Below are positions 5,815 through 57,673 of a stretch of DNA of 64,000 bases, piece after piece (position 1 is the first letter of the stretch; each line of letters begins with the position of its first letter). The stretch comes from a virus, in IMG/VR virus record IMGVR_UViG_3300045988_137032, positions 64,001 to 128,000 of that record, one strand, 5' to 3'. The position numbers and the translations under genes were made by a program. The notes beneath the pieces were generated by a model. The model saw nothing but the letters and a program-made list of their open reading frames with translations, searched no databases and was not told the origin of the DNA.

Positions 5815-5858
5815 ATACTCCGAATTAAAATTCACTATAATAAAGGAAGGTGTTAGTA

Positions 5859-6671
5859 ATGGTAAGAACTGATCAAGCTTATATCAATCAGTACCTCGTC
5901 TATGACGAGGTGTTTGAAGCTTGTGAAGCATGTGAAAAAGCATGTGTAGAAGCTGATTATTTCCTGCGTAAAGAAGCTCGTAAGAGTTATCTTGATACTT
6001 ACTTTTCTGAAGCACTAAACGTCGGTGCTAAGAAGAATGATAAGACGGAAGATAACATCTTTGCTAAGATCGGTAAGGCTATCGTTGCTCTTATTGAGAA
6101 GATTAAGAAGGGTATCAAGCATATTACCGATGCTATTCTTGGTAGTGAGCGTCGCAATGCAAAAACAAATTCTGCCGTCCAGAAGATCATTGCTGAGAAT
6201 CCTGAACTGAAGAAGGATATCATCAAGGGTGTTCGTAATGAATGGTTCACATCATATGATGTTGCTGGCTATAAGAATGATATCATCGGTCTGATTAATA
6301 TGATTGATCAGGCTAAGATCGATAATGCTACAGCAATGGATAAGTTTAAGATGTCAACCGAGAAGTTCCGTAAAGGCACTGTTAAGGTTATTGCAGGTGC
6401 TGGTGCAGCAACTGCTCTCTTTAAATTCGTTACCGAATTGAATAATCAGCGTAAAGCTCTTCGTGATATGGCTACCGACGTCCAGAAGCTTTGTGAAAAG
6501 AAGAAGGAAGAAGCCGAGAAGAAGGGTAAGGATGCTGGTGTAATTAGCAACGTACTTCGTATTATCACCAGCACTATCCAGGTTCTTTTTGGTATTGATA
6601 AACAGCTTGAAGACAATACTAAGAATATCGAAAACCATGTCGAAAGTGCAACTGGTGTAAATAAATCTTAA
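5859..6671 (+). CDS. coiled-coil protein, paralog family member 5
   Basis: RBS AAAGGAAGGTG before ATG 5859; motif IFAKIGKAIVALIEKIKKGIKHITDAILG; hydrophobic VIAGAGAATALFKFV. Confidence 0.85.
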   Translation: MVRTDQAYINQYLVYDEVFEACEACEKACVEADYFLRKEARKSYLDTYFSEALNVGAKKNDKTEDNIFAKIGKAIVALIEKIKKGIKHITDAILGSERRNAKTNSAVQKIIAENPELKKDIIKGVRNEWFTSYDVAGYKNDIIGLINMIDQAKIDNATAMDKFKMSTEKFRKGTVKVIAGAGAATALFKFVTELNNQRKALRDMATDVQKLCEKKKEEAEKKGKDAGVISNVLRIITSTIQVLFGIDKQLEDNTKNIENHVESATGVNKS

Positions 6672-18046: not shown

Positions 18047-19594
18047 ATGAGAATTGATTTATTCGATATGGATGAATTTGTTAAGATTAACCATCTTAAA
18101 GAAGTTACATCTCCAGTTCTTTTTGAACGTGGTGGAATTCCGAATCCCAATGGATTGATTTCCAATGAGATCTTTGGTGTTTCTGTGAAATCTCGTAAAG
18201 AGACGTTTGCATACATTAATCTGCATGGTTATTTCTTTCATCCTCATATCTATAAGATCATGAAACGCGTATTCCGTAATATTGATCAGATTGTGGATGG
18301 TAGTCAAACATTTTCCATTCAAGATGGTAAGCTTGTGAAAGATCCAAATGGCGATACTGGAATTAATTGGATCTATAACAACTGGAGTAAGATCAAGTGG
18401 GAAGGTAATGGCGGTATGTCATCTGAACGCTGTGACCTTATCGGTAAGACAAAGAAGAATGAAGTCTTCTTAACAAAGGAAATCGTAATTCCTGCATTCT
18501 ATCGTGATATCAAGACAAGCAAGGGCGGCGGTGGAGAATCCACTGAACTCAATAACCTCTATACGAGATTGATTCGTATGGGAGCTATGCTTGAGAATGC
18601 AGACATGTTTGATTTCTCTTTCCATTCTACAAATGCTACTATACAGAATACTCTGGTTGAGATTTATGATTTCTTCAAGAATAGTTTGGATAAGAAGAAC
18701 GGTATGCTCCGTAAGTATCTGCTTGGTAAGAACGTGGACTACTGTGTTCGTACAGTTATCTCTGCACCGTCCTATAACTGCGAGAATCCGAAAGATAATA
18801 TCGTTGACTTTAAGCACGCAGCATTACCTCTGTCCCAGGTCATCGTTGAAGCATATCCGTTCATTGTGGCATGGGTAAGAAACTTCATTGAGCGTGAAAT
18901 TCTGGAAGTCCAGAATAGTAAGGAAGGTCTTTCTGGTGGTAGCTATACACTGAAGAACCCTGAATCATACTTTAATGATGAATATATCAGGAAGCGTCTT
19001 GGCCAGTTTACCAAAGATCCTTCCAGCCGATATGATCTAGTTACAGTTCCTCTTACCAATGGTAAGGAACTTCCCTTGCAGTTTAAGGGAATGATGGTTG
19101 GTGTATCTGCTGATAAAGCATCAATTGCACGTCCTCTCACTTGGTGTGATGTTCTCTATATGGCAGCAGTTGAGTGTACTCAGGATAAGTATTGTATGAT
19201 TACACGTTATCCTGTCCTGAATAACTTTGGTTTCTTTATTGCAAAGATCAATGTGTCTTCTACGCTTCATACTATTCCTGTTAAGGTGAATGATACCATT
19301 TATAAGTGGTATCCTGACATTGATGTGGATATGCCTAGAAGTCAGGTTGCAAATAACTTCATTGATACAACTCGTTTCTCAGATTCTTACCTGAAGGGTC
19401 TGGATGGTGACTACGATGGAGACCAGGTTACTTCAAAGATTTTCTGGACTCAGGAAGCGAATGCTGAATGTGAGAGAGTTATCAATAGTAAATCTTTTGC
19501 ATTGAATCCGAATGGTTCCAATTGTCGTATTATCGACTTGGAGGCTATCCAGACTTTCTATGTACTTACGAAGGATGCGCCTAAAGTAAGTTAA
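18047..19594 (+). CDS. multisubunit RNA polymerase beta-prime-like subunit, N-terminal half (set 1)
   Basis: GLISNEIFG; LLGKNVDYCVRTVISAP (compare LLGKRVDYSGRSVI); catalytic GLDGDYDGDQV (compare NADFDGDQ). Confidence 0.8.
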   Translation: MRIDLFDMDEFVKINHLKEVTSPVLFERGGIPNPNGLISNEIFGVSVKSRKETFAYINLHGYFFHPHIYKIMKRVFRNIDQIVDGSQTFSIQDGKLVKDPNGDTGINWIYNNWSKIKWEGNGGMSSERCDLIGKTKKNEVFLTKEIVIPAFYRDIKTSKGGGGESTELNNLYTRLIRMGAMLENADMFDFSFHSTNATIQNTLVEIYDFFKNSLDKKNGMLRKYLLGKNVDYCVRTVISAPSYNCENPKDNIVDFKHAALPLSQVIVEAYPFIVAWVRNFIEREILEVQNSKEGLSGGSYTLKNPESYFNDEYIRKRLGQFTKDPSSRYDLVTVPLTNGKELPLQFKGMMVGVSADKASIARPLTWCDVLYMAAVECTQDKYCMITRYPVLNNFGFFIAKINVSSTLHTIPVKVNDTIYKWYPDIDVDMPRSQVANNFIDTTRFSDSYLKGLDGDYDGDQVTSKIFWTQEANAECERVINSKSFALNPNGSNCRIIDLEAIQTFYVLTKDAPKVS

Positions 19595-22792: not shown

Positions 22793-24553
22793 TCAGAAAT
22801 CTGGTAATTCTACACTATTTGGATCAAAGCGATCATATTCGCTTCCATCACCAAGTTGATTCATTTCACTATCCTTTTTGGATTTCCCTACCGTAGGACG
22901 AGGTCTTGCATTTCTGGAAGACGGAGGAGTATCCGTAAACGAATTCGCCAAAGACAACTTACTGACGGGTTCTGGCATATAGATATCATCAATAAGACGA
23001 CTTCCTGTTTCATCGTAAGGATGAGTAAAGTAATCAATTTCACTAACAGCGACATGATACTTGGGATCTTTCTTTGTGTTGGTGGAGCGATAACGACGCT
23101 TCAAAAGTTTGAATGTCAGATACTTATCACTCGTATCAGATCTCGTTTCTGTATTGACCACAATGGTAACGTCGCAGTTCTCTTGGATTTCCCAAGCGCC
23201 TGCAATACCATCACGTCCAACCAGACGAGTAACATCGACTCTGTTAGACTGCAATGCGCCATCCACGATAGATGCTGCATTACGATTCAACTGCTGTGCA
23301 GTAATCACTGCAATGTCAAGTTCTTTCGCAATCGTTTTAAGTTCGTTGGTCACATTCTTTAATTCTTCTTTTTCTGTATCCGCTTTCTCAGAGGGACGAA
23401 TTCTCTTCAAGTAGTCGAGGATCAAAGTAACAACTTCTCTTCCATCATCAAATTCATCCTGAATAATCGTACGAAGATCATTCGTATCAATACTTCTATT
23501 CGGATAATACTTAATGACAATATCGATGTTGTTTTTATCAGTCAGAGTCATTTCACCTTCATCCTTGAGCATCTTTACAACCTGCTCAGGACTATAATTA
23601 CGAATATCGGTACTTGATACACGCATAGCAAAAATACGTTCGATGGTCTCATCAATATCATTCTCCATAGTGATGAGCAATACACAAGGAATCTTACCTG
23701 GATGCCGTGCTTTGACATCGGGATTGTATTTTTTGATATCAAGTGCAGATTTCAAAAGAATCTGACTTTTACCACCACCAGGAAGTGCCAGGAAGCAGTA
23801 AAGACGCTTGCTCTGGAAACCAGGTGCAAGCATGTAGTTTAAGAACTGGATACCAGTTCTAAACACACGGTTTTTATCACTTAAATGCGTAACAGCATCG
23901 CTGACAGCATTTGCAAAATTCTCTGTATCAAGAGAGAAAGTATCATTCTGATTCGTTGTATCGGATTTACGCTTGATATTAATAAGCTCTGTTGCTAATC
24001 TGTAGATGATATTCACACACTTTTTGTAGGAGTGATTATCTCCACCTTCCAAATCCATGGAATCCATTGCTTCGAATAACTTGTCACGGAAATACACGAT
24101 GTATCCATAACGGACTCTATCCTGAATACCTTCCAAAAGATATTTGATATCATCCGTGTCCAACTTCACCATGTTATTGGGAATATCATTCAGAAGTTCT
24201 GGAATGAATGGATTATTGTCTTCACATGCATTTCGTTCTGCAACATGCTCTTTCAATACGGTAAACCCGCTTAACTTATACTCAAACTTTCCCTCCAGTG
24301 TATAATAGATAAGTTTCACACGAGCCATTAACTCGTCATTCTTCTTATACACATCATAATCAATCATTTGAAAAAGTCTATACGTAGTCGAAAGAGCTTT
24401 TCGAGTACGTAAGATCGACGGGGTATAAATAAATGAGATGATGGAATTCAAAACATCCATACTCATTTTTATTTTAACGCGCTTCATAGTTACACCGTAG
24501 ATGGTTGTCGTTTCATCTGAGGTGTAAGATTTTTTAGTTTTCTTCGTTGCCAT
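22793..24553 (-). CDS. DnaB-like replicative helicase
   Basis: Walker A ALPGGGKSQILL; VVTLILDYLKRI (compare DYLQLM); ELKTIAKELDIAVITAQQLNR (compare the DnaB SQLNR motif); RBS GGAGGGA before ATG 24553. Confidence 0.75.
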   Translation of the reverse strand: MATKKTKKSYTSDETTTIYGVTMKRVKIKMSMDVLNSIISFIYTPSILRTRKALSTTYRLFQMIDYDVYKKNDELMARVKLIYYTLEGKFEYKLSGFTVLKEHVAERNACEDNNPFIPELLNDIPNNMVKLDTDDIKYLLEGIQDRVRYGYIVYFRDKLFEAMDSMDLEGGDNHSYKKCVNIIYRLATELINIKRKSDTTNQNDTFSLDTENFANAVSDAVTHLSDKNRVFRTGIQFLNYMLAPGFQSKRLYCFLALPGGGKSQILLKSALDIKKYNPDVKARHPGKIPCVLLITMENDIDETIERIFAMRVSSTDIRNYSPEQVVKMLKDEGEMTLTDKNNIDIVIKYYPNRSIDTNDLRTIIQDEFDDGREVVTLILDYLKRIRPSEKADTEKEELKNVTNELKTIAKELDIAVITAQQLNRNAASIVDGALQSNRVDVTRLVGRDGIAGAWEIQENCDVTIVVNTETRSDTSDKYLTFKLLKRRYRSTNTKKDPKYHVAVSEIDYFTHPYDETGSRLIDDIYMPEPVSKLSLANSFTDTPPSSRNARPRPTVGKSKKDSEMNQLGDGSEYDRFDPNSVELPDF

Positions 24554-24684
24554 GTGAGAGTCCCTCCTAGTTGAATATTTGGGTCGCACTAAGATAATAT
24601 GGAAAACTTTAAGGGAAAATAAGACACACTCTATATACTTTTAAGGAGGGTCTATTAAATCTATCAAAGTGTTACCCGGGGTGT

Positions 24685-25013: not shown

Positions 25014-25136
25014 TTCTGGGCTATTTTATCCGGAGGGGGTGGATAATGAAATTCATTGAGTTTCAATATCCCGGTGACAGTATCCTAACCGATGGTTTTG
25101 AAAGATAAACCTTATAAGAAAGGAATGGTCCTTATT

Positions 25137-28100
25137 ATGAAATCAGTTAAGAAACGTGATAACCGGATAGTGGAATTCGACCGGGAAAAAATCGTCTCTG
25201 CAATCCAGAGAGCATTTATTGAGGTCGATGGTACACTATCCGATTCAGCCAAAAGTATCGCGGAATCTACTGCGACAAAAGTTGCCCTGATCCCTGAAGA
25301 TATGTCTGTGGAACAGATTCAGGATCAGGTGATCTATTCCCTTATGGATACTTCTCGGAAAGATGTTGCAAAAGCATATACGGAGTATCGGTTCAAACAC
25401 AATTTAGCTCGGGATTTCCGTAACACCACCGATCAAGCTATCATGGACCTGCTTGATCACAAGAACGAAGAAATCAATGGTGAGAATTCCAATAAGGATC
25501 CCGAGATCGTTTCTGTTCAGCGTGATTATATCGCTGGTATTACTTCTAAGGATATTACAAAGCGTATTCTGCTTGACGAAGATATTGTGAAAGCCGATGA
25601 AGCTGGTATTATCCATTTCCATGACTCTGACTATTTTGCACAGAATGTGCTTACCAACTGCTCTCTGTGCAATCTGGAGGATATGCTCCAGAATGGTACT
25701 GTCATTAACGGTACAAAAATCGATAAGCCTCACCGTTTTATCACAGCGTCGACTATTGCAACTCAGATCATCACTGCTGTGACATCTTCTCAGTATGGTG
25801 GTATCTCTATTACTCTGACACATCTTGCACCGTTTGTTCGTGAGTCCTATAATCGGTATCTTAGTAAATACCGTAGCTGGGGATTTGATGAGAAGAAAGC
25901 TGCCAAGTATGCTGATCTGGATACTCGTAAGGAAGTTGAAGACGGCTGCCAGACTTTCATCTATCAGGTGAATTCCATGTCTACAACCAATGGCCAGGCT
26001 CCGTTCCTGACTGTCTTTATGTATATCAATGAGACAGAGGAATATCGTGATGAACTGGTAATGCTGATTGAAGAATTCCTCCGTCAGCGTATTCAGGGTA
26101 TGAAGAATGAGCAGGGTGTATGGATTACTCCTGCATTCCCGAAACTCATTTATGTCCTCGATGAGGATAATATTAAGCCTGGCACAAAGTACTGGGACAC
26201 TACAGTTTTAGCTGCTCAATGTACTGCCAAACGCATGGTTCCTGACTATATTTCAGCAAAAGTGATGAAACAGCTGAAGGGGGACGTGTGGCCGTGCATG
26301 GGTTGCTTTGATGCAAAAGAGGTTGTTTCATATCAATTAAATAACGAGTCTCACGTGAGTACTTTTGAGGAAATGTGGAATTCGTTTAAAGGTAGATTTG
26401 ATATGGTATCTCAGGAAACTGGTGTTGCTGGTGATACCTACATGAATCTTACTGGAGTTAAGATTTACGACCATGTGAATGGATGGACTGATTGCAAGCG
26501 TCTTATCCATAATCATCACGATAAGATGCTTCGTGTCGTCTTTACGAATGGTCGTGTAGTTGAAGTCACTCCGAATCATCCGTTCACAGTTGAAACGAAT
26601 TCCAAGACTGAATCTATCGTCTATGCTGAGAAACTCAATGTCGGTGATACGATCAAGATCGATAGTGAGTTCAAGGCATTCAACGAAGATGATCTGAAGG
26701 TATATAATTCTCCGAATGATGAGAAGCCTGCTATTGCAGCAGAGAATTTCGTTATGAATAAGATTCGTGATGATGAACTTCTCACTCTGGATCTTATCTT
26801 CAATTACAAGAAGGATACTCGCCGTGAATTCCTGTATGGTCTGATTCAGACTATGCGTGACGATCTTGAAGTCGTTAAGAAGGAAGAGACTGATCCTCGC
26901 GATGAGAATCGTTCCTTCATCGATGACTATAATAAGACAAAGGTCATCGGCATTCATTATCTTACTAAGGATCGCGCACTGAAGATCATGATGCTTGCTC
27001 AAAGCGTTGATGTTCATGCGGATATTCATGTGGAAGATGAAGAGTCTCGTCATTATCAGGATCTATATAAAGTACAGATTGCTCCTACATACGAACTCAT
27101 TAAGCTCTGCACGAATGATCAGGATTCCTTCTGGGGAGTCTTCAGTGATTCCGTTATGAATGAACTGGAGAACTCTGAGCTGTTCCATCAGGAATATGCT
27201 TGTGTGGAATCCGTCACTCGTCGTTACGAACTTCGTGAAAGCTATGATGTTACGACTGCCTCTGAGCACTTCAGTGCATCCGGCATTTATACTCATAACT
27301 GCCGTAGTTTCCTTACTCCGTATAAAGATCCGAAAACTGGTAAGGGAAAGTATTATGGTAGATTCAACTGTGGTGTCGTAACCATTTCTCTCCCTGATCT
27401 TGCTTTCTCTTCCGGTGGAGACTACGATAAATTCTGGCAGCTCTTTGAAGAGCGTACTGAGCTTTGCCATAGAGCATTGCGTGCACGTATTGATCGTATC
27501 AAGGATACATCTGTTAACGTCGCTCCCATTCTTTGGCGTCATGGCGCATTTGCACGACTTCCTATGGATGCTAAGATCGGCGATATCATGTTTAATGGAT
27601 ATTCTACTATCTCACTTGGATATGCAGGTCTGTATGAGTGTGTCAAGTATATGACTGGTCATTCTCATATGGATAAGGGTATTGGTACTGAATTTGGCCT
27701 TAAGGTCATGCAAGCTTTGAATGATAAGTGTAATCAGTGGAAGACAGCAGAGCATATCGATTATTCTCTGTATGGTACCCCGATTGAGAACACCACTTAC
27801 AAGTTTGCCCGTTGCCTTAAGAAGCGTTTTGGTAATGATATCTTCGTCAAGCTTGATGGTAAAGACCGTGATTACATCACCAATAGCTACCACACAGCAG
27901 TCTTTGAAAAGATCAATCCGTTTGATAAGCTGATTCAGGAAGCTGAATTCCAGAAGCTTTCTCCGGGCGGCGCTATCAGTTATATTGAATGCTCTGATTT
28001 GACTCATAATATTCCTGCTGTTCTTCAGGTCATGCAGTGTATTTATGATAACATCATGTATGCTGAGCTCAATATCAAGTCTGATTATTGCATGTGCTGT

Positions 28101-28215
28101 GGATTTGATGGGGAGATCAAAGTTATTGACGACGGTGGTAAGTTGGTTTGGGAATGCCCGAACTGCGGCAACCGTGATCAGCATAAAATGAGCGTCGCTC
28201 GACGCACTTGTGGAT
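25137..28215 (+). CDS. nrdD: anaerobic ribonucleoside-triphosphate reductase NrdD, exon 1 (contains an in-frame intein)
   Basis: ATP-cone VKKRDNRIVEFDREKIVSAIQRAF; PCMG...CRSFLTPYKD...GRFNCGVVTISLP; C-terminal Cys4 CMCCG...CPNCG; glycyl-radical motif begins RRTCG at the exon end. Confidence 0.85.
26304..27299 (+). mobile_element. intein (332 aa) within NrdD
   Basis: Starts with Cys (CFDAKEVV). Block B is VEVTPNHPF. Ends YDVTTASEHFSASGIYTHN, followed by the +1 Cys of CRSFL. Degenerate LAGLIDADG-like REFLYGLIQTMRDD in the middle. Confidence 0.8.
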
Positions 28216-28527
28216 TGAATTATTCAATATAGTCCACGTTAAACCTGTTAAACTGCGGGAAGTTCCTTAGAGCTCTAGGTTACCAAGTATAGTTTGGTGA
28301 CAGCTATATGGCTGATTTTAACAGAATCGGATATGGTAAAAAGACTTAGAGATTGGATAATCATCGCATCGAAACTTCTGCGAGTAGAAATACTCGTATG
28401 GATTTATTCCACTTAGGGAAGGACGTTCAACGACTATAATACGGGCGCGCTACTTAGTGACTTCACTAAGCAAGTATGGTATAGTCTACTCCCGTACTTA
28501 AATATCGGGAAACCGAGGGTACAAAGG
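28216..28527 (+). ncRNA. group I self-splicing intron (no internal ORF) in nrdD
   Basis: Removing it restores RRTCG-YIGTHFWSQGRTDEIRNRYVH. The 5' exon end GUGGAU pairs with GUCCAC at 28232-28237, giving a U-G wobble at the splice site. The last intron base is G. AAACUGCGGGAAG and GGUUACCAAGUAU resemble group I core strings. Confidence 0.75.
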
Positions 28528-28637
28528 ATATTGGAACTCACTTCTGGTCTCAGGGTCGTACCGATGAGATTAGAAACCGTTATGTGCATCTGACAGATAT
28601 TCCTGCTGATGGTGAAGAAGTAGAGGAGACTGAATAA
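28528..28637 (+). CDS. nrdD: NrdD exon 2 (C-terminal 35 aa plus the split Tyr codon)
   Basis: T(28215)+AT gives Tyr, then IGTHFWSQGRTDEIRNRYVHLTDIPADGEEVEETE and TAA at 28635-28637, 1 nt before the nrdG ATG. Carries the nrdG RBS GAGGAG. Confidence 0.75.
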
Positions 28638-28638
28638 T

Positions 28639-29319
28639 ATGCGATATGCATCTATCCGAGAAATGGATATTAGCAATGGTTATGGTGTTGGTGTATCTTT
28701 CTTTACTCAAGGATGCCACTTCCACTGTAAGAATTGCTTTAATCAACAGACATGGGATTTCAATGGTGGTAAAGAATACACCAATGAAACGGAAGTAAAG
28801 ATCCGTTCCCTTGTTGATAGACCTTATATCCATAGATTCTCCGTTTTAGGTGGAGAACCTCTGGAATGGTGTAATATCTACGATTTGACAAATCTTCTCC
28901 TTCACATCAAAGAAGATGCTGATCTTACTTATAAGAAAATGGATGTCTGGCTTTATACCGGATATTCCCTTACCGATATTATTTGGAAAGCACTTTTACA
29001 GTTTAATCCACCACAGAAGCCGAAATCCAACTATACTACGGATGATAAAGAAGCTCAGATTATGAGTATGCTGTATTTCGTAGATCATTTGGTTGACGGT
29101 CAGTATGAAGAAGATAAGAAAGATTTTCATTTGAAATTCTGTGGAAGCAGCAACCAGAGAATTATTGATATGAAGAAAACCCATTATAATTATATGAATG
29201 ACGAAGTGATGTGCTACGTTCGTGGAAATCATAATTCAATGAATGCAGCTCAAATCCAGAATGTTATCGATTATATCAACAAGGAAGTAATCGTAACTAT
29301 TCCACAGGAATCGTTGTGA
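28639..29319 (+). CDS. nrdG: anaerobic RNR activating enzyme NrdG (radical SAM)
   Basis: GVGVSFFTQGCHFHCKNCFN (CxxxCxxC cluster); position directly after nrdD. Confidence 0.85.
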   Translation: MRYASIREMDISNGYGVGVSFFTQGCHFHCKNCFNQQTWDFNGGKEYTNETEVKIRSLVDRPYIHRFSVLGGEPLEWCNIYDLTNLLLHIKEDADLTYKKMDVWLYTGYSLTDIIWKALLQFNPPQKPKSNYTTDDKEAQIMSMLYFVDHLVDGQYEEDKKDFHLKFCGSSNQRIIDMKKTHYNYMNDEVMCYVRGNHNSMNAAQIQNVIDYINKEVIVTIPQESL

Positions 29320-29500: not shown

Positions 29501-32500
29501 ATGGTTTATATTACGTCTCTCCCATATATGAATGCAACAGCACGGAAAGCGTATTTACCGAAGGAAGTAACTCTTCCTGGGGTAAAACCTATGTCTGGAC
29601 ATGGTAATCTTGCATTTATTATGGCTACTACTCCTGCCGAAGTAATCCATGTAATTGATAGGCCGAAGAACTGTATGGCGGGTACTTATTATAAGTATCT
29701 CTATCACAATCTTCGGTATCGTGGTAAGATCGGTAATAGAAGTTATAATTTAAGAGACCTTGATGGTCGTAATAATATTTATGACCGTATTAGTAATCCG
29801 AATATTCATCCTCATCCTCCCACATTACTTAATAAGACTCCTGACTACAATACACTCTTTGATATGTCAACTTACATCAAGCTGTATAATACCATGAGTG
29901 TAAAATTCCAGCCTTCTGCGAGAGTAAATCTCTACTGGAATTATATGAAGACTATTTGGAACGGTGAGCAGACTTCTCAGTATCCGAGTAAGTTTGTACT
30001 GATAGACGTTGATCTTTTTGACAACTTCAATAGTACAGACTTCATGAAGAATATTGAGAATCCACTCTTTATCTTCTATTACTCTATGTCGAGAGAACTT
30101 CCTGCATTCACATCCATCAATATGGACTTCTATTTCTATTCGGATAGCATGATTCTTCGTGTAAATCCGAGTAAGACTTCGAAGAGAGATGCAAGTAATT
30201 TCCGTACCCAGCTTAAAAAGGTATTTAAGCGGTCTACTCGTTGGGAAGATGTTACGGATGAGAAAGAAGTTAGTAGTGAAGTGACGAAGGCTTCCATTAC
30301 TGCTACTCTGAATACTCGTTATAATATGACGGGTAGAACAGAAAATACTCGCCCTGTGGCAACTGATCTTCCGCCTGCTAAGAATGTGGATAAGCCGGAA
30401 CCTGTTGTAAAGACAAGTCCGAAGATTATGCGCCCTGACGTAGTATCTCAGGAACAGAAGAAAGTTGCAGTAAGTCCTGTTACGAAGACTTCTTCTGCAA
30501 AAAATTCTTATGTTGCTACGGATGTAGAGAAAAAAGAAGACATTGAGCAGGCTAAAAAGGTAATTGCTACTAAGATTGATCAGAAGATTGATCAGACTAC
30601 TAAGGAGATTAAAGCAGTTACTGATGCTGCTAAGACTCCTGAAGAAGCAAAAGCTGCTGCGGATTACGTTAAGACAAAATCCGAAATGGATTTGGATAAT
30701 GATAAGGAACTGATTGAAAGCATGTATAAGGTTATGCAGGCTACAACAGTTCCTACCAAGCCTGTTAGTACTGCACGCGATGCTGCAATGCGTAAGCGCC
30801 AGGAAGAAATTAAGCTTGAGAATATGACATTCCAAGACGTCAAGAATATGAATGCCGCAAAGCGTCCTATTCCTGAAAAGGATATCTCTGGTGCTCTTCA
30901 TACCATCAATGATAATATGAAGACCGTGAGATTTGCGAATGTCAATAAGGATTACATTGAGAATGTCATGCCTGCTGACTTAATGAATGCATTCACTTGC
31001 CTTAATAACAAGAGCATGCCGTTCTATGTCAGAGACATTCAGACCAAGGATACATCGGATGAATTGAACTACAAGATGACTATGAAGGTTACTCTGGAAG
31101 ATGAGGCTCATCAGCGTCATGTTGTTACTGTCGATATTCCGAAATTCTTGGATGATAAGTTCCTGTACCTTGGTGGTAATAAGAAGCTTATCAATAAGCA
31201 GAATTTCTTGTATCCTGTTGTAAAGACTGCTCCTGATACTGTGCAGATCGTTTCCAACTACAATAAGATTTTCGTACGCCGTATTGGTGCAAAGAGTATT
31301 TCGTCAGTTGAACGTCTGATAAAATTGATTTATGCAAATCCCGATGCTATGAAACTCTTCACAGTTGGTAACGCATATATCACGAATAAGCAGTATCTTA
31401 CTACTCTTGAGTATGACGAGTTTAGTAAGGTTATTACGAAATTCAAAACTCCTACTTGTACGATTTTCTTCAATCAGGAAGAAGCTACGAAGTATATCTC
31501 AGATCACAATATCGAAGCACCGAAGTGTGATGTAGGTAGTGAGATCTTCATTGGATTCCGTGATAAGAATAGAGAGCTTTGGTTAAACTCTGAAACTCAG
31601 ATGGTTGGCGATGAGCCTCTTTGTGATATCATCGCTGCTGAACTTCCTGAGAATATCCGTGAAGAATACTTCAAGACTCGTAATACGAAGAAGGTTATGT
31701 ATTCCACTGCTACATTGATGAAGCAGTCTATGCCTCTCATTGTATATATGCTGTATTGGGAAGGAATCACTTCTGTATTTAAGAAGATGAATCTGAGGTA
31801 TGAATTCAGCAAGAGCTATCCGAAGTCTGTAAAACCTTCTCAGGGTGTTATCCGTTTCAAAGACTGCTATATGCTGTATGATGCTGATATGGCTACTGCA
31901 TTACTCATGAATGGTATGAAGGTTCTTGATACAGAATCTCATGACCTGAATGAGTATAATAGCGTAGAAGCATACGTGGATTACTTTAAGAAGGTATACG
32001 GTAAAGTATCTATCATGTCTGCTATTAGCAACTACTATGACTTCATGATCGATCCTATTACAGAAGAAATCCTTCGGGATATTAATCTTCCTACGGATTT
32101 GATTGATGTTTGTATCTATGCTAATAGTCTGCTTGTTGATGATAGCTATACCTTTGAATCTAGCCAGCGTATTGCGCGTGTGCGTTCTAGTGAAGTTATT
32201 CCTGCAATTCTCTATTATCAGCTCTCCCGTTCCTATCTTGAATATAAGAATAGTAACGGTAAGAAGAAACTGAGTCTTCCTAGAAATGCAGTCATTAAGG
32301 AACTCATGGCATTACAGACAGTGGAAGATTACTCTACACTGAATCCTGTCGTTGAACTTGAGAAGGATCGTTCCATCTCTGCTAAGGGATATCGTGGTGT
32401 CAACGTGGAACGTGCGTATACAGAAGAGAAGCGTTCTTACGATGCATCTATGATTGGTGTTATCGGTATGAGTACTTCTCCTGATGGTAACTGTGGTATC

Positions 32501-33847
32501 AATAGAACTCTTACTATGGAACCCAATATTACCTCTGCACGTGGATACGTTGATATCAAAGAGAATGAGCGTGATGATCTTAAGGACGTTAACGTATTCT
32601 CTCCCGGTGAACTTCTGTATCCTCTTGGCGCAACTCGTGATGATTCCATCCGTACTGCAATGGCTGTCAAGCAGTCTAAGCATGTTATTCCCGTTAAGAA
32701 TGCAGCACCTGCATTGATTGCTAATGGATCTGATGAAGCAATTCGTTTTGATCTGTCGAGTGATTTCGTTATTAATGCTGCTGAAGATGGTAAGGTTATT
32801 GACTACGATCCAAAGAGCAATATTCTTATGCTGGAGTATAAGTCTGGTAAGCATCAGGCAGTTAATCTTGCACCGAATATTGTGAAGAATGGCGGCGGCG
32901 GTTTCTATCTTTCCAATGAACTTATCACGAAATACAAAGTAGGCGATAAGTTTAAGAAGGATGACGCTATTGCATGGCATAAGGATTTCTTCAAAGACGA
33001 TGGTATGAATGGTCTTCGTATGAATGTGGGTGTTCTTGAGAAGGTTGCTATCATCTCTAGCTACAATACCTACAACGACTGTACCGTTATTACCAAGAAG
33101 CTTGCAGGTGATGCAGAAGCCAATATGACTTTCTGTAAATCTGTAGTTATTGGTAAGAATTCTAACGTCTATGACATTCGTAAAGTCGGTGATCATCTTA
33201 GCATTGGTGATCCATTGATCGCATATGATACTTCCTTTGAAGATAGTGATCTGAATAAGCTTCTTGCATCACTTTCTGATGATAATAAGGAGCTTATTGA
33301 TGAAGGAAGTAAGAATGTCATAAAGAGTAAATACGCTGGTAAAATTGTCGGCATCAAGATCTATTCTGCTGTAGAGCTTGAAGATATGAGTCCTTCTCTC
33401 CGTAAGATTGTGTCCAGTTACTATAACGGAGTTAAAGAAAAGAAGGGATTCCTCGATAAGTATGCCGAGGAAGGTAGCAGCATTGTCAAGTGTGGACTTC
33501 TCGTAAATGAAACTACTGGTAAGATTGAACCTAATATCTATGGCGTTATTAAGGGTCAAAAGATCAATGACGATGGCGTTCTCATTGAATTCTATATCGA
33601 ACACCCGGATATCTTAGGAGTAGGCGATAAAATCGCCTATTTCACAGCTCTTAAGGGTATTATCGGTGAGATTATACCTGAAGGCTATGAACCTTATAGT
33701 GAATTTCGCCCGGATGAAGAAGTTTCTTCGCTAATCCCACCGTCCTCAATTTTGAAACGTCAGGTTCCTTCTATTCTGATCACAGTTCTTGGTAACAAGA
33801 TTATGGTTGAATTGAAGAGAAAACTTGAGGAGATCTACAACTCCTAA
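29501..33847 (+). CDS. multisubunit RNA polymerase beta-like subunit (1448 aa) with a long N-terminal extension
   Basis: SAKGYRGVNVERAYTEEKRSYDASMIGVIGMSTSPDGNCGINRTL (compare ALGPGGL...RDVH..HYGR.CPIETPEG.NIGL); RTAMAVKQSKHVIP (compare NMQRQAVP); YFTALKGIIGEIIPEGYEPY (compare GRHGNKGV..I.P.EDMP). The first ~465 aa are not beta-like. Confidence 0.7.
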   Translation: MVYITSLPYMNATARKAYLPKEVTLPGVKPMSGHGNLAFIMATTPAEVIHVIDRPKNCMAGTYYKYLYHNLRYRGKIGNRSYNLRDLDGRNNIYDRISNPNIHPHPPTLLNKTPDYNTLFDMSTYIKLYNTMSVKFQPSARVNLYWNYMKTIWNGEQTSQYPSKFVLIDVDLFDNFNSTDFMKNIENPLFIFYYSMSRELPAFTSINMDFYFYSDSMILRVNPSKTSKRDASNFRTQLKKVFKRSTRWEDVTDEKEVSSEVTKASITATLNTRYNMTGRTENTRPVATDLPPAKNVDKPEPVVKTSPKIMRPDVVSQEQKKVAVSPVTKTSSAKNSYVATDVEKKEDIEQAKKVIATKIDQKIDQTTKEIKAVTDAAKTPEEAKAAADYVKTKSEMDLDNDKELIESMYKVMQATTVPTKPVSTARDAAMRKRQEEIKLENMTFQDVKNMNAAKRPIPEKDISGALHTINDNMKTVRFANVNKDYIENVMPADLMNAFTCLNNKSMPFYVRDIQTKDTSDELNYKMTMKVTLEDEAHQRHVVTVDIPKFLDDKFLYLGGNKKLINKQNFLYPVVKTAPDTVQIVSNYNKIFVRRIGAKSISSVERLIKLIYANPDAMKLFTVGNAYITNKQYLTTLEYDEFSKVITKFKTPTCTIFFNQEEATKYISDHNIEAPKCDVGSEIFIGFRDKNRELWLNSETQMVGDEPLCDIIAAELPENIREEYFKTRNTKKVMYSTATLMKQSMPLIVYMLYWEGITSVFKKMNLRYEFSKSYPKSVKPSQGVIRFKDCYMLYDADMATALLMNGMKVLDTESHDLNEYNSVEAYVDYFKKVYGKVSIMSAISNYYDFMIDPITEEILRDINLPTDLIDVCIYANSLLVDDSYTFESSQRIARVRSSEVIPAILYYQLSRSYLEYKNSNGKKKLSLPRNAVIKELMALQTVEDYSTLNPVVELEKDRSISAKGYRGVNVERAYTEEKRSYDASMIGVIGMSTSPDGNCGINRTLTMEPNITSARGYVDIKENERDDLKDVNVFSPGELLYPLGATRDDSIRTAMAVKQSKHVIPVKNAAPALIANGSDEAIRFDLSSDFVINAAEDGKVIDYDPKSNILMLEYKSGKHQAVNLAPNIVKNGGGGFYLSNELITKYKVGDKFKKDDAIAWHKDFFKDDGMNGLRMNVGVLEKVAIISSYNTYNDCTVITKKLAGDAEANMTFCKSVVIGKNSNVYDIRKVGDHLSIGDPLIAYDTSFEDSDLNKLLASLSDDNKELIDEGSKNVIKSKYAGKIVGIKIYSAVELEDMSPSLRKIVSSYYNGVKEKKGFLDKYAEEGSSIVKCGLLVNETTGKIEPNIYGVIKGQKINDDGVLIEFYIEHPDILGVGDKIAYFTALKGIIGEIIPEGYEPYSEFRPDEEVSSLIPPSSILKRQVPSILITVLGNKIMVELKRKLEEIYNS

Positions 33848-39960: not shown

Positions 39961-41376
39961 TTAACAAGTGCAGAAGTTGTACAGGTTGATCTTCTCACAC
40001 TTATCAATCATGAAGTAGTTATTCAGTTTACCAGTATCACGACTGATCATCATACGAGAGACGGGATCGAACTTGCGGAATGCATGTTCGAGTTCTTTGT
40101 CCATAAGGCCGATGATATTCAGAATATCACCATCGAAGTCTGCATTCAAACCAGGAAGAACGCTCAGAGGAACCGACAGAGTAAAGTCAGATACATCAGA
40201 CTTAATGCTGCGGATATCCATCAGAAGCATGCTGTAATAGTTCAGAGTAGGATTTCGGTTGATGATAATCTTTGGATGCTCCTTATTGACGATGAAGCAC
40301 ATAACCTGATAAATCTTCGGATCAAACTTATAAGCATTGCGATAACGCTCATAAGCTTTTGCCAGAGGAATATCATCCAGCTTCATCAGCCATTCAATGA
40401 TCTTGAACTTAAACATCTCAAGGAAGGTATTGTAACTCAGATCAACCTCAGAGTCACGCAGAGTAGGATTCGGGATAATGACATTACGAGAGGTGTAGTT
40501 TAATGCACCACCGAGAATCTGTCCACGAATCCAACCTTCCTTACCATTCAAGGCATCGAAGTTTTCATCCCAGATATCATTGACACGACCCTGGATGCTA
40601 TGCAGGATATATGCACGATCAATATCCTCGCTGTTCTTGAGCTTATCGCTCAGACTAAACAGCGGGTTGATATTACGGTCGATTGTATTGTAGTAGTAAG
40701 TATCAGTAGTCGTAGACTGAGGACGAAGAAGAGTAGAGTAGATAGGAATGTGTGAAGTAAACACAGCACTCTTTTCACTCTTAATGCGATCAAGTTCATT
40801 GATCGCACTCTTCTTTTTGGTCTTAACGAACTCAATGATTTCATCGAAGTTCTCTTTGAATTCGACAAGACCAATTCCACCAAATCCACCAAGAGCCGCC
40901 TGCTCTTCAGGATCAAAGTATCTCTTTCTCTGACCATCCACGTCAACGATGTACTTATCGTTGATCATGGCCTCCAACATACCTTTCTTCATACAAGAAG
41001 ACAACTTCTTATAGTAGAAAGGATTGATGATGAAATTATCACCCAGTGCAATCCAACCAGTGAATTCGATGTTGACATCTTCGTACTTCACAGGCTTTCC
41101 GCAGATGGGACAAATTTCACCAGCGAACATCTTCCCTTTGAATGCACCACATTCACAGCGATAACGCTCAATGAATGCGTTCTCGTCTTCGTAGTTCGTT
41201 CCGTACAGTGGCGAACGAGCACCATAAAGACTCTTCTGTTTCGTGTCATCAAACTTGATAACTGCGGGCTCCGTAATGGTAAACCCGTTATTCGTCAGGA
41301 TGTCATTTACATATTCAACGTCCCAATTCAACCGCTTAATACGCACACGGTTTTTCCCATGCTTGTGCTTGCCCAT
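39961..41376 (-). CDS. multisubunit RNA polymerase beta-prime-like subunit, N-terminal half (set 2)
   Basis: Zn finger CECGAFKGKMFAGEICPICG; RGQILGGALNYTSRNVIIP (compare LLGKRVDYSGRSVI); catalytic LNADFDGDILN. Confidence 0.85.
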   Translation of the reverse strand: MGKHKHGKNRVRIKRLNWDVEYVNDILTNNGFTITEPAVIKFDDTKQKSLYGARSPLYGTNYEDENAFIERYRCECGAFKGKMFAGEICPICGKPVKYEDVNIEFTGWIALGDNFIINPFYYKKLSSCMKKGMLEAMINDKYIVDVDGQRKRYFDPEEQAALGGFGGIGLVEFKENFDEIIEFVKTKKKSAINELDRIKSEKSAVFTSHIPIYSTLLRPQSTTTDTYYYNTIDRNINPLFSLSDKLKNSEDIDRAYILHSIQGRVNDIWDENFDALNGKEGWIRGQILGGALNYTSRNVIIPNPTLRDSEVDLSYNTFLEMFKFKIIEWLMKLDDIPLAKAYERYRNAYKFDPKIYQVMCFIVNKEHPKIIINRNPTLNYYSMLLMDIRSIKSDVSDFTLSVPLSVLPGLNADFDGDILNIIGLMDKELEHAFRKFDPVSRMMISRDTGKLNNYFMIDKCEKINLYNFCTC

Positions 41377-57599: not shown

Positions 57600-57673
57600 T
57601 GCGCTCGGTGGAAGTCGAATCCACACTGAACGAAGCTTAAGTTCGTTGCCTCTGCCAATTGGGCTACCAGCGC
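57600..57673 (-). tRNA. tRNA, anticodon UAA (Leu by the code) with a short variable loop
   Basis: Minus strand reads GCGCTGG TA GCCC AATTGGCAG AGGC A ACGAA CTTAAGC TTCGT TCAGT GTGGA TTCGACT TCCAC CGAGCGC A. The T arm and anticodon arm are perfect, with a TTCGA T-loop, GG in the D-loop and A73. There is one G-G mismatch in the acceptor stem (6:67), a 3-bp D stem, and no encoded CCA. Confidence 0.7.

What the first reader, a model, noticed from the sequence alone, without database searches (positions are those of the whole stretch)
28216..28527. ORF-less 312-nt group I intron inside the glycyl-radical motif of nrdD
The annotated ORF ends ...RRTCGLNYSI-TAG at 28232. This truncates the conserved RxCGY glycyl-radical motif and leaves 406 nt of apparent spacer before nrdG. 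Joining ...TGT GGA T (28215) to AT ATT GGA... (28528) restores RRTCG-YIGTHFWSQGRTDEIRNRYVHLTDIPADGEEVEETE-TAA. The W..G+..EI..R..H tail is typical of NrdD C-termini, and the new stop lies 1 nt before the nrdG ATG. Splice-site logic fits a group I intron. The 5' exon end GUGGAU can pair with GUCCAC at 28232-28237 (P1), placing the splice-site U in a U-G wobble. The intron's last base is G. Internal strings AAACUGCGGGAAG (about 28250) and GGUUACCAAGUAU resemble the P3-P4 and P6 core strings I remember from Tetrahymena and phage group I introns. No ORF is present, so the intron would depend on a trans-acting or lost homing endonuclease. T4 nrdD (sunY) also carries a group I intron; I cannot tell whether the insertion site is the same.
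Basis: partly seen in the sequence, partly recalled or inferred. Interest (0 to 1): 0.7.

Follow-up and report, generated by a model that had tools for sequence, protein, structure and literature searches.

The report
Group I intron splitting phage nrdD
A 312-base self-splicing-type (group I) intron with no gene of its own interrupts a phage anaerobic ribonucleotide reductase gene one base after the codon for its radical-bearing glycine; this is a well-supported but ordinary kind of phage selfish element at an insertion site I did not find described.

Summary
Removing 28216-28527 joins ...RRTCG to YIGTHFWSQGRTDEIRNRYVHL..., which matches intron-less relatives and the full Pfam NRDD and Gly_radical profiles. 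Rfam's Intron_gpI model scores only 27.9 bits, below its cut-off of 50. However, two of three DNA-polymerase-gene introns in a related Bacillus phage also score below it.

Stronger evidence comes from 17 further copies at the identical site: 16 viral contigs, Enterocloster phage CB457P1, a human-gut scaffold and one Clostridia MAG.
- **Fold:** an alignment of 13 distinct copies supports the group I core (P1, P3/P7 pseudoknot, P4-P6, P9). 99.2% of cells are paired and 16 of 40 pairs show compensatory changes.
- **Splice sites:** the U·G pair at the 5' splice site and the terminal G never vary. P10 co-varies with synonymous exon changes.
- **Selection:** exon 2 shows only synonymous change between close relatives (13 nt differences, 0 amino-acid changes).

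The T4 nrdD intron sits about 400 codons upstream, so it is a different insertion. Near-identical or homologous same-site introns carry an HNH or a LAGLIDADG gene in the P8 loop. The window copy has none, and no HNH homologue was found in the 64 kb.

Verdict: real group I intron, new member of a known kind, moderate interest.

The parts
25092..28215 (+). nrdD exon 1 (ATP-cone + NRDD body, up to ...RRTCG plus the first base of the Tyr codon); it contains a 332-aa intein at 26304-27299
   Evidence: ORF. With the intein removed, the spliced product hits Pfam NRDD at 573.8 bits over profile 1-562/562, and also ATP-cone.
28216..28527 (+). ORF-less group I intron, 312 nt
   Evidence: Rfam Intron_gpI 27.9 bits. 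Seventeen further same-site copies. Covariation.
28210..28237 (+). P1: exon GUGGAU (28210-28215) pairs with the internal guide GUCCAC (28232-28237). U28215·G28232 sits at the 5' splice site. An in-frame UAG (28230-28232) lies in the P1 loop.
   Evidence: All 13 sequences pair. The A-U to G-C compensatory change in the CB457P1 type pairs a synonymous GGA>GGG change with a U>C change in the guide. The U·G pair never varies.
28223..28230 (+). P10 half of the internal guide (UUCAAUAU), pairing with exon 2 AUAUUGGA (28528-28535)
   Evidence: Duplex prediction gives 8 bp. L012 has exon ACAUUGG with guide ..CAAUGU.. (U-A to C-G). L002 has AUAUCGG/CCGAUAU. L021 has UUUAGG/CCUAAA.
28244..28248 (+). P3 5' strand CCUGU (partner ACGGG at 28441-28445); forms the pseudoknot with P7
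   Evidence: All 5 pairs show changes on both sides, and 100% of cells are paired.
28254..28259 (+). P4 5' strand UGCGGG (partners at 28365-28368 and 28361-28362)
   Evidence: The pairs are invariant, or show G-C/G-U variation.
28264..28357 (+). P5 (UCC 28264-28266 / GGA 28355-28357) and its extension: P5a CUCUAGG 28273-28279 / CUUAGAG 28345-28351, then two distal hairpins
   Evidence: P5 is supported. P5a comes from reading the sequence and the constrained fold. The equivalent helix in the MT835556 type is CACAACAA/UUGUUGUG. This region is 75% identical to Bacillus phage SIOphi polA intron 2.
28370..28425 (+). P6 (CG 28370-28371 / CG 28424-28425), P6a (CUUC 28375-28378 / GAAG 28418-28421) and distal hairpins, including one with a GAAA loop
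   Evidence: (three of the four P6a pairs show changes on both sides).
28432..28438 (+). P7 5' strand GACUAUA (partner UAUAGUC at 28480-28486), the expected guanosine-binding helix
   Evidence: 7 bp. Pairs 3 and 4 change on both sides in the MT835556 type (GAACAUA/UAUGUUC). The first two pairs never vary.
28453..28470 (+). P8 hairpin CUUAGUG-ACUU-CACUAAG. In relatives this is where the endonuclease ORFs sit.
   Evidence: Constrained fold. L012 has a 532-nt insert here in place of the 10 nt GTGACTTCAC.
28491..28519 (+). P9 (CCC 28491-28493 / GGG 28517-28519) enclosing hairpin UCGG-GAAA-CCGA (28505-28516)
   Evidence: all four hairpin pairs show changes on both sides.
28527..28527 (+). Terminal guanosine (omega-G) at the 3' splice site
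   Evidence: Invariant in the 13 aligned copies. Also G in L012 and L024.
28528..28637 (+). nrdD exon 2: (Y)IGTHFWSQGRTDEIRNRYVHLTDIPADGEEVEETE plus the stop codon
   Evidence: It aligns to residues 581-604 of T4 NrdD (PDB 1h78). It shows 13 nt differences and 0 aa differences against L012.
28639..29319 (+). nrdG (activating radical-SAM enzyme), starting 1 nt after the restored nrdD stop
   Evidence: Pfam Fer4_12 at 120.6 bits, plus a Radical_SAM match at 26.1 bits, below its 29.5-bit cut-off.

Best explanation
Window 28216-28527 is a group I intron in the nrdD gene of a large gut phage. It lies between the first and second base of the Tyr codon that follows the radical-bearing Gly (motif RRTCG|Y, equivalent to G580/Y581 of T4 NrdD).

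**Inferred mechanism (standard group I chemistry)**
1. The pre-mRNA folds so that exon bases GUGGAU (28210-28215) pair with the intron's internal guide GUCCAC (28232-28237) to form P1.
2. An external guanosine bound in P7 attacks after U28215, which sits in a U·G wobble.
3. The guide bases UUCAAUAU (28223-28230) then hold exon 2 (AUAUUGGA, 28528-28535) in P10.
4. The terminal G28527 enters the G site and the exons are ligated.

The result is an mRNA for a full-length NrdD whose C-terminal glycyl-radical domain is intact. Its stop codon lies 1 nt before nrdG.

**Shown here**
- The exact junctions.
- The fold, supported by covariation.
- Co-evolution of the guide sequence with both exons.
- Selection on exon 2 in the spliced frame.

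**Inferred**
- Catalysis itself.
- Whether splicing needs no protein.
- Mobility.

The window copy encodes no endonuclease. It is most likely a derivative or relative of an endonuclease-carrying form, and cannot home on its own.
For: **Junctions and product**
- Splicing gives an uninterrupted ORF.
- With the intein removed, the product matches Pfam NRDD end to end (573.8 bits, profile 1-562/562) and Gly_radical (66 bits).
- It aligns with T4 NrdD 484-604. The Gly of RRTCG falls on residue 580, which is Ala in the crystallised mutant (RRTCAYLG).
- The intron-less Enterocloster phage CB457P2 reads ARRTCGYIGTHYWNYGRTEEIRDRFVHL without a break.
- In the phage collection, 1416 records cover at least 80% of the 93-aa C-terminal query in one place. 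Only MT835556 and CB457P1, CB473P1 and CB473P3 stop at the G.

**Homology to known group I introns**
- Rfam Intron_gpI scores 27.9 bits, E 4e-5. The core strings align: AAACCUGU..CUGCGGGAA, GUUCAACGACUAUA, GGUAUAGUCUA.
- blastn shows 75% identity over 130 nt to Bacillus phage SIOphi polA intron 2. That intron passes Rfam at 66.7 bits.
- The other two gaps between the SIOphi DNA-polymerase CDS pieces score only 40.1 and 20.1 bits. Sub-threshold scores therefore appear usual for this group.

**Comparative structure**
- A DNA pattern search found 16 viral contigs, all with the element at the same nrdD position. One Clostridia MAG has it too.
- RNAalifold on its own recovers P1, P4, P5, P6, P6a, P7 and P9.
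- With P3 added as a pseudoknot, 99.2% of 517 cells pair. 16 of 40 pairs change on both sides. Slid controls pair at 34-42%. None of 500 shuffles reaches the observed value on four of the five measures; the count of further pair types was reached by 414 of 500.

**Guide sequence**
- P1 and P10 co-vary with synonymous exon changes.

**Selection**
- In the first 25 codons of exon 2, window versus L012 shows 13 nt and 0 aa changes, against 11 and 9 aa changes in the other two frames. L002 versus L014 shows 16 nt and 0 aa changes.
- No independent ORF covers exon 2.

**Endonuclease states**
- L012 has a 97-98% identical intron with an HNH_3 ORF in P8.
- L024 has a LAGLIDADG_2 ORF there.
- The window has no HNH homologue.
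Against: - The Rfam score is below the curated threshold (27.9 versus 50). The default gathering scan reported nothing.
- There is no RNA evidence of splicing for this genome, and none is obtainable here.
- The 13 sequences represent only about six lineages, so cell counts overstate the number of independent events.
- The structure was partly derived from these same sequences, which favours it over the slid controls.
- The subgroup could not be assigned. There is no room for P2 (6 nt between P1 and P3), and only one hairpin lies between P3' and P7', so there is no P7.1/P7.2. This differs from the IA2 architecture that I recall for the T4 and Twort introns.
- The guanosine-binding pair in P7 was not identified independently.
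Confidence: 0.9

Rival explanations
1. The element is a decayed group I intron that no longer splices. Under this view nrdD in this phage is a pseudogene, truncated before its radical glycine can function, and the downstream frame is a relic.
For: - The Rfam score is sub-threshold.
- No endonuclease gene is present.
- The gene also carries an intein, so it is heavily parasitised.
Against: - Every core helix is intact, and helices are maintained by compensatory changes across lineages.
- The guide sequence tracks synonymous exon changes even between 97%-identical introns.
- Exon 2 evolves only synonymously in the spliced frame.
- nrdG follows intact, 1 nt after the restored stop.
Confidence: 0.04
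2. It is a genuine group I intron, but in vivo it splices efficiently only with help. That help could be a host or phage RNA chaperone or maturase-like protein, or ribosome positioning. It would then not be strictly self-splicing.
For: - P2 and P7.1/P7.2 are absent.
- The MT835556-type relatives even lack P8, which suggests the scaffold may be marginal.
- All six lineages keep an in-frame stop inside the P1 loop, just upstream of or overlapping the guide strand. From my own knowledge, this resembles the translation-coupled splicing described for T4 introns.
Against: Nothing here argues against it. The intron retains large P5 and P6 extensions with GNRA loops, and these usually stabilise the core without protein.
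Confidence: 0.2
3. It is not an intron. The 406 nt would be an intergenic spacer, and NrdD in this lineage truly ends at ...CGLNYSI. Alternatively, the gap would be crossed by ribosomal bypassing or a frameshift.
For: Gene callers annotate the homologous Enterocloster phage CB457P1 gene as ending there.
Against: - The truncated protein would lack everything after the radical Gly.
- Intron-less relatives read straight through.
- The spacer folds into a group I core supported by covariation, with exact splice-site signatures.
- A 312-nt bypass has no precedent.
Confidence: 0.01

Closest known systems
Phage T4 nrdD (sunY) group I intron carrying I-TevII
   Same: - It is in the same host gene family (class III RNR large subunit).
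- It is the same class of ribozyme.
- It has U before the 5' splice site and G before the 3' splice site.
- It is found in a phage.
   Different: - **Site:** the T4 intron follows nt 538 of the CDS (codon 180..AYE|YEVNTLFSSNGQ..). The window intron follows the Gly580-equivalent codon, about 400 codons downstream.
- **Size and cargo:** T4's is 1033 nt and holds a GIY-YIG endonuclease gene. The window's is 312 nt with no gene.
- **Rfam score:** T4's scores 105 bits and the window's 27.9.
ORF-less gaps splitting the DNA polymerase genes of SPO1-like Bacillus phages (Herelleviridae), e.g. Bacillus phage SIOphi polA intron 2; also K/Twort-like Staphylococcus, Listeria and Enterococcus phage sequences
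   Same: - This is the best DNA similarity found: 75% over 130 nt across P3-P5abc-P4'.
- The 3' half (P7-P9) is 72-75% identical to Staphylococcus phage sequences.
- They share strings CUGCGGG, UCCUUAGAG, AUUGGAUAAUC-CGCA, GUUCAACGACUA and UAUAGUCUACUCC.
- The size is similar and there is no ORF.
   Different: - The host gene and the guide sequence differ.
- SIOphi intron 2 has about 70 nt between P3' and P7', and the window has 34 nt with a single hairpin.
- Homology here is inferred from sequence. I did not read the literature on these particular introns.
Unannotated same-site introns in Enterocloster phages CB457P1, CB473P1 and CB473P3 (e.g. OP172753) and gut scaffold MT835556
   Same: - The insertion point is identical (TGT GGN T | ... 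G | AY ATN GG).
- The core is homologous.
- The NrdD product is restored in the same way.
   Different: - These are different lineages, 275-293 nt long, with different peripheral helices.
- The records annotate nrdD as ending at the intron and list no intron.
- I found no paper mentioning an intron in these phages.
Fragmented nrdD of 'Jug' jumbo gut phages, with group I introns and inteins (PMC12880540)
   Same: - These are gut phages with nrdD split by group I introns and intein-type insertions.
- Splicing was confirmed there by metatranscriptome reads.
   Different: - Those phages are predicted to infect Bacteroides or Phocaeicola.
- I could not tell from the text whether any of their introns occupies this site.
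- No DNA match to the window was tested against them.
Intron plus intein in one RNR gene (SPbeta bnrdE; 'lightning strikes twice', as cited in PMC3653736)
   Same: [quoted passage not shown]
   Different: - That case is class Ib nrdE in a temperate Bacillus phage.
- This case is class III nrdD. The intein sits immediately before the Cys of MGCRSFL, and the intron one base after the radical Gly codon.

Membership tests
Group I intron (Rfam RF00028) | Score at or above the curated Rfam gathering threshold (50 bits) | tested here: not met
   27.9 bits, E 4e-5 on 601 nt and 0.0043 on the whole window. Calibration: the three SIOphi polA introns score 66.7, 40.1 and 20.1 bits.
Group I intron (Rfam RF00028) | P1 formed by the 5' exon end and an internal guide sequence, with U·G at the 5' splice site | tested here: met
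   GUGGAU/GUCCAC. The U·G pair is invariant in 13 of 13 sequences. One pair shows a compensatory change linked to a synonymous exon change.
Group I intron (Rfam RF00028) | Terminal G at the 3' splice site | tested here: met
   G28527. It is invariant in all aligned copies and is also G in L012 and L024.
Group I intron (Rfam RF00028) | Conserved core P3-P4-P5-P6-P7-P9 in canonical order, with the P3/P7 pseudoknot | tested here: met
   99.2% of cells paired, 16 of 40 pairs with changes on both sides, and all 5 P3 pairs co-vary. Slid controls pair at 34-42%.
Group I intron (Rfam RF00028) | P10 pairing between the guide sequence and the 3' exon | tested here: met
   8 bp in the window, with compensatory changes in L012, L002 and L021. 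It is weak in L008.
Group I intron (Rfam RF00028) | Precise excision restores a conserved reading frame | tested here: met
Group I intron (Rfam RF00028) | Guanosine-initiated self-splicing | not testable with these tools
   This needs in-vitro transcription with labelled GTP, or RNA from infected cells.
Subgroup IA2 (T4 td/nrdB/sunY and Twort type, as I recall its definition) | Extra helices P7.1/P7.2 between P3' and P8 | tested here: not met
   Only 34 nt with a single hairpin (P8, 28453-28470) lie between P3' (28441-28445) and P7' (28480-28486). P2 is also absent, with 6 nt between P1 and P3. The definition is recalled from memory and was not checked against a subgroup model.
Mobile (endonuclease-encoding) group I intron | Homing endonuclease ORF inside the intron | tested here: not met
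   The only ORF is 40 aa with a TTG start and no Pfam hit. Relatives do meet this feature: L012 HNH_3 at 28.7 bits and L024 LAGLIDADG_2 at 37 bits.
Orthologue of the T4 nrdD intron | Same insertion site in nrdD | tested here: not met
   T4's site is at codon 180. The window's site is at the G580/Y581 equivalent.

The most novel reading that the evidence does not exclude
The window copy belongs to an intron family caught at several stages of the homing cycle at a single hot spot, the Cys-Gly-Tyr codons of the glycyl-radical motif. The stages seen are:
- an HNH gene inside P8 (L012);
- a LAGLIDADG gene inside P8 (L024);
- a homologous HNH gene free-standing just downstream of nrdD (MT835556 type and L008 type);
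- no endonuclease (window, L018, L022, CB457P1 type);
- a sister intron shifted 5 nt upstream (L025).

On this reading the ORF-less window intron still spreads, mobilised in trans by the HNH enzyme of co-infecting relatives ('collaborative homing'). Between window and L012 the intron is 97-98% identical, against 81-88% for the flanking exons. That contrast would be the trace of recent lateral transfer rather than of structural constraint alone.

A side claim concerns the MT835556-type members, which lack P8 altogether. Judging by purifying selection on exon 2, they appear to splice. If so, they would be natural group I ribozymes without a helix usually treated as part of the core.
Probability: 0.3. 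Interest if true: 0.55.

Novelty: new member of a known kind. Interest (0 to 1): 0.35.

Why it matters
**Annotation**
- Gene callers truncate NrdD at ...CGLNYSI and leave a 406-nt 'spacer'. The same error is present in deposited Enterocloster phage genomes.
- Recognising the intron restores an intact glycyl-radical enzyme. It also shows that the nrdD-nrdG pair is functional.

**Biology**
- This adds an insertion site to the list of selfish elements that target the most conserved codons of ribonucleotide reductases.
- One gene carries an intein immediately before the Cys of the conserved MGCRSFL motif. From memory, that Cys is the active-site (thiyl-radical) cysteine.
- The same gene carries a group I intron one base after the radical glycine codon.

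**Follow-up material**
- The family offers a compact natural series: endonuclease in, next to, or absent; site shifted by 5 nt; P8 present or absent.
- That series could be used to study intron mobility and minimal ribozyme architecture.
- None of this changes the known principles.

Tried and rejected
- **Rfam gathering scan of the whole window:** no hit. Only the E-value mode shows the intron. It also shows a tRNA that the first scan missed.
- **Megablast of window 20000-44000 against 50,697 phage records:** no match. The genome itself has no close sequenced relative there.
- **Own covariance model of the family:** not attempted. A model of about 300 positions would also exceed the calibration time limit.
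- **Subgroup assignment:** could not be done. No subgroup models are available, and the IA2 features I recall (P2, P7.1/P7.2) are absent.
- **Literature:**
  - I found no paper on an intron at the glycyl-radical motif of nrdD, or in Enterocloster phages.
  - A search for group I introns lacking P8 returned only irrelevant papers.
  - The group I intron database paper does not mention phages or RNR.
- **Genome-collection hit L023 (GC-rich Clostridiales contig):** a chance match to the 20-base pattern, with no nrdD or intron context. Discarded.
- **P5a covariation:** could not be counted on alignment A1, because MAFFT puts the lineages one column out of register there. It is reported only from direct reading.
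- **tblastn of the L012 HNH protein against the window:** nothing at E up to 1. I did not screen the window for other endonuclease families.
Full report
**1. What is in the sequence**

The long ORF 25092-28232 encodes a class III ribonucleotide reductase large subunit. It stops as ...ARRTCGLNYSI-TAG.
- The next gene, at 28639-29319, matches Pfam Fer4_12 (120.6 bits) and, below its cut-off, Radical_SAM. This is the NrdG activase.
- Between the two genes lie 406 nt.
- Joining T28215 to A28528 gives one ORF ending ...ARRTCG-YIGTHFWSQGRTDEIRNRYVHLTDIPADGEEVEETE-TAA. The stop is at 28635-28637, one base before the nrdG ATG.
- The junction is unambiguous. The Tyr codon needs T from exon 1 and AT from exon 2, and the base before 28528 is G.

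**2. Is the restored protein right?**

Yes.
- After also removing an intein (see section 7), the product matches Pfam NRDD over the whole profile (573.8 bits, positions 1-562 of 562). It also matches Gly_radical (66 bits) and ATP-cone.
- The C-terminal 138 residues align with T4 NrdD 484-604 from PDB 1h78. The Gly of RRTCG falls on residue 580. That residue is Ala in the crystallised protein (RRTCAYLG). From established knowledge, it is the glycyl-radical site.
- Enterocloster phage CB457P2 has an uninterrupted gene ending ARRTCGYIGTHYWNYGRTEEIRDRFVHLGDNEN*.
- A tblastn of the C-terminal 93 residues against 50,697 phage records found 2485 records. Of these, 1416 cover at least 80% of the query in one place.
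- Only MT835556 and Enterocloster phages CB457P1, CB473P1 and CB473P3 stop exactly at the Gly. CB457P2, CB473P2 and PMBT24 read through.
- This patchy distribution among close relatives is what a mobile insertion produces.

**3. Is it a group I intron?**

Rfam's default scan found nothing. The permissive scan gives Intron_gpI at 27.9 bits (threshold 50). E is 4e-5 for the 601-nt stretch and 0.0043 for the window.
- The alignment places the canonical J3/4-P4 string (AAACUGCGGGAA), the J6/7-P7 string (GUUCAACGACUAUA) and the P7' string (GGUAUAGUCUA) correctly.
- It mis-places P1 in the exon.

As a calibration, I scanned the Bacillus phage SIOphi DNA polymerase gene. It is annotated in four pieces with three ORF-less gaps. 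The gaps score 66.7, 40.1 and 20.1 bits. The T4 nrdD intron scores 105 bits. A sub-threshold score therefore appears common for this group of phage introns.

blastn links the window intron to these sequences:
- Intron positions 36-165 are 75% identical to SIOphi intron 2, the one that passes Rfam.
- Positions 205-312 are 72-75% identical to sequences in Staphylococcus phages.
- About 300 records match in all, from Staphylococcus, Enterococcus, Bacillus and Listeria phages.

**4. Comparative proof**

*Copies found.* The pattern CACGTTAAANNNNNTAAACTGCGGG found 16 viral contigs. In every one the element sits at the same place in nrdD: TGT GGN T | intron | AY ATN GG (or AT TTA GG). Its removal yields RRTCG-Y(I/L)G....
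- With CB457P1 and the gut scaffold MT835556, these give 13 distinct ORF-less sequences. They fall into about six lineages of 275-407 nt.
- A Clostridia MAG carries another copy (L024).
- Relaxing the pattern so that it no longer included the guide bases found only one further viral contig (L025). This subfamily is therefore essentially specific to this gene.

*Fold.* On a MAFFT alignment (A1), RNAalifold alone predicts P1, P4, P5, P6, P6a, P7, P9 and the P9 hairpin. I added P3 as a pseudoknot and counted pairs:
- 99.2% of 517 cells form standard pairs.
- 16 of 40 pairs have changes on both sides.
- All five P3 pairs co-vary. The lineages read CCUGU/ACGGG, CCAUC/GGUGG, UCGAU/AUCGA, CAGGA/UCCUG, UCGGU/ACCGA and UUAAU/AUUAA.
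- P7 changes GACUAUA/UAUAGUC to GAACAUA/UAUGUUC.
- Sliding the partners by 1-3 columns drops pairing to 34-42%.
- None of 500 shuffles reaches the observed percentage paired, compensatory counts or covariation score. The fifth measure, the count of further pair types, was reached by 414 of 500 shuffles.

*Caveats.* Six lineages mean far fewer independent events than cells. The structure was also partly read from these sequences.

**5. The guide sequence tracks the exons**

*P1.* It is GUGGAU/GUCCAC in the window. In the CB457P1 lineage the exon has the synonymous GGG for GGA, and the guide has C for U, giving GUGGGU/GCUCAC.

*P10.* It pairs exon 2 AUAUUGGA (28528-28535) with UUCAAUAU (28223-28230).
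- L012's intron is 97% identical to the window's. There the exon reads ACAUUGG (Tyr TAC) and the guide reads ..CAAUGU.., a U-A to C-G switch.
- The MT835556 type has AUAUCGG/CCGAUAU.
- L021, whose exon encodes Leu (AUUUAGG), has CCUAAA.

These changes are hard to explain unless P1 and P10 form.

**6. Exon 2 is expressed in the spliced frame**

No plus-strand ORF of 30 aa or more ends at 28637. Yet exon 2 evolves almost only synonymously between close relatives:

| Pair | nt differences | Codons changed (of 25) | aa changes, spliced frame | aa changes, other two frames |
|---|---|---|---|---|
| window vs L012 | 13 | 12 | 0 | 11 and 9 |
| L002 vs L014 | 16 | 13 | 0 | 13 and 14 |
| L009 vs L014 | 17 | 14 | 0 | 14 and 15 |

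This is indirect but strong evidence that splicing happens in vivo.

**7. Anatomy in window coordinates**

| Element | Coordinates |
|---|---|
| P1 | 28210-28215 / 28232-28237 |
| P10 guide | 28223-28230 |
| P3 | 28244-28248 / 28441-28445 |
| P4 | 28254-28259 / 28361-28362 + 28365-28368 |
| P5 | 28264-28266 / 28355-28357 |
| P5a | 28273-28279 / 28345-28351, plus two distal hairpins |
| P6 | 28370-28371 / 28424-28425 |
| P6a | 28375-28378 / 28418-28421, plus distal hairpins |
| P7 | 28432-28438 / 28480-28486 |
| P8 | 28453-28459 / 28464-28470 |
| P9 | 28491-28493 / 28517-28519, enclosing UCGG-GAAA-CCGA |
| Terminal G | 28527 |

- There is no room for P2: six bases, GUUAAA, separate P1 from P3.
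- There is no P7.1/P7.2. I therefore do not assign a subgroup.
- The unspliced exon-1 frame stops at UAG 28230-28232, inside the P1 loop. All six lineages have such a stop before or overlapping the guide strand.

**8. Relation to T4**

The T4 nrdD CDS is joined from two pieces with a 1033-nt intron. The only junction that gives a sensible NrdD sequence (..AFQAYE|YEVNTLFSSNGQ..) lies after nt 538, at codon 180. It has U before the 5' site and G before the 3' site. The Rfam hit lies there too. The two introns occupy unrelated sites about 400 codons apart.

**9. Endonucleases and mobility**

- The window intron has no credible ORF.
- L012's intron is 97.5% (5' part) and 96.7% (3' part) identical to the window's. 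Its flanks are only 81% (exon 1), 86% (exon 2) and 88% (nrdG) identical.
- L012 has a 532-nt insert replacing the 10-nt tip of P8. The insert encodes a 160-aa protein with a Pfam HNH_3 domain (28.7 bits, cut-off 24.8).
- L024 has a LAGLIDADG_2 protein (37 bits) at the same place.
- Homologues of the HNH protein (46-52% identity) lie free-standing just after the nrdD stop in the MT835556-type and L008-type contigs. None is in the window.

My inference is that the window copy cannot home by itself. It either lost its endonuclease gene, never had one, or is carried along by recombination. It might also be mobilised in trans by a relative's enzyme. The direction of the ORF gain or loss cannot be told from these data.

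**10. Comparison with the literature**

- Group I introns in phage RNR genes are well known. RNRdb curated more than 100 in RNR genes.
- A survey of 128 phage genomes found nrdD to be the most often split RNR gene.
- Gut 'Jug' jumbo phages have nrdD fragmented by group I introns and inteins, with splicing seen in metatranscriptomes.
- I found no description of an intron at the glycyl-radical motif, nor of the introns in the Enterocloster phages. The library searched is incomplete.

**Verdict**

It is a new member of a known kind, with modest interest.

Noticed in passing
window 26304-27299 (+): A 332-aa intein sits inside nrdD exon 1...VWPCMG|CFDAKEVV...SGIYTHN|CRSFLTPY. It starts with Cys, ends in His-Asn and is followed by Cys. 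NCBIfam intein_Nterm scores 28.2 bits (cut-off 24.5). Pfam Intein_splicing scores 30.4 bits, below its 35.8 cut-off. The close relative L012 lacks it (..VYPPMSCRSFL..). The +1 Cys is the Cys of the conserved MGCRSFL motif, which from memory is the active-site Cys of NrdD. One gene therefore carries an intein and an intron at two key residues.
   Followed up: partly
L002 3492-3766 and L009, L010, L011, L014, L015, L017 (MT835556-type introns): These same-site introns have only 10 nt (AUCAUUAUUG) between P3' and P7', so they have no P8 hairpin at all. Yet their exon 2 shows only synonymous change (16-17 nt differences, 0 aa differences). They may be natural P8-less group I introns that still splice.
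   Followed up: partly
L012 2153-2635; L024 6617-7186: Homologous same-site introns carry different homing-endonuclease genes in the P8 loop. L012 has HNH_3, in an intron 97% identical to the window's. L024 has LAGLIDADG_2, in a Clostridia MAG from rabbit.
   Followed up: yes
L002 ~3900-4300, L009 ~5080-5460(-), L010, L011, L015, L017; L008/L016/L020: An HNH-type ORF, 46-52% identical to the intron-borne one of L012, lies free-standing just downstream of the nrdD stop. In L002, L009, L010, L011, L015 and L017 it carries an in-frame TAG (..DGHI*TTLAQGCRDRYD..) at the same position despite other sequence differences. This could be a shared pseudogene lesion, a downstream start, or stop-codon read-through or recoding.
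   Followed up: no
L025 (IMGVR_UViG_3300043003_000064), minus strand around 5850-6250: A clearly homologous intron sits in nrdD 5 nt upstream of the window's site...AGA ACG T | intron | GT GGA TAT TTA GG. It lies inside the Cys codon and has a matching guide (GAACGU/GCGUUC). The family thus has two insertion points flanking the Cys-Gly codons.
   Followed up: partly
window 18047-19594(+), 29501-33847(+), 39961-41376(-), 44074-46368(-): Four separate ORFs match PHROG families annotated as RNA polymerase beta subunit. This is typical of jumbo phages with their own split multisubunit RNA polymerases. Contigs holding window-type or MT835556-type introns reach 145-262 kb. There is also a DnaB-like helicase at 22793-24589(-).
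   Followed up: no
window 57600-57673 (-): ARAGORN finds a tRNA-Leu (anticodon TAA). The Rfam E-value scan also finds it at 48.3 bits, above the tRNA gathering score of 29. The default Rfam gathering scan of the whole window did not report it.
   Followed up: no
L001 (OP172753.1, Enterocloster phage CB457P1) 1364-3505 and 3788-3870: The deposited annotation ends nrdD at the intron and leaves exon 2 unannotated. CB473P1 and CB473P3 look the same in tblastn. This is a systematic annotation error caused by the unrecognised intron.
   Followed up: partly
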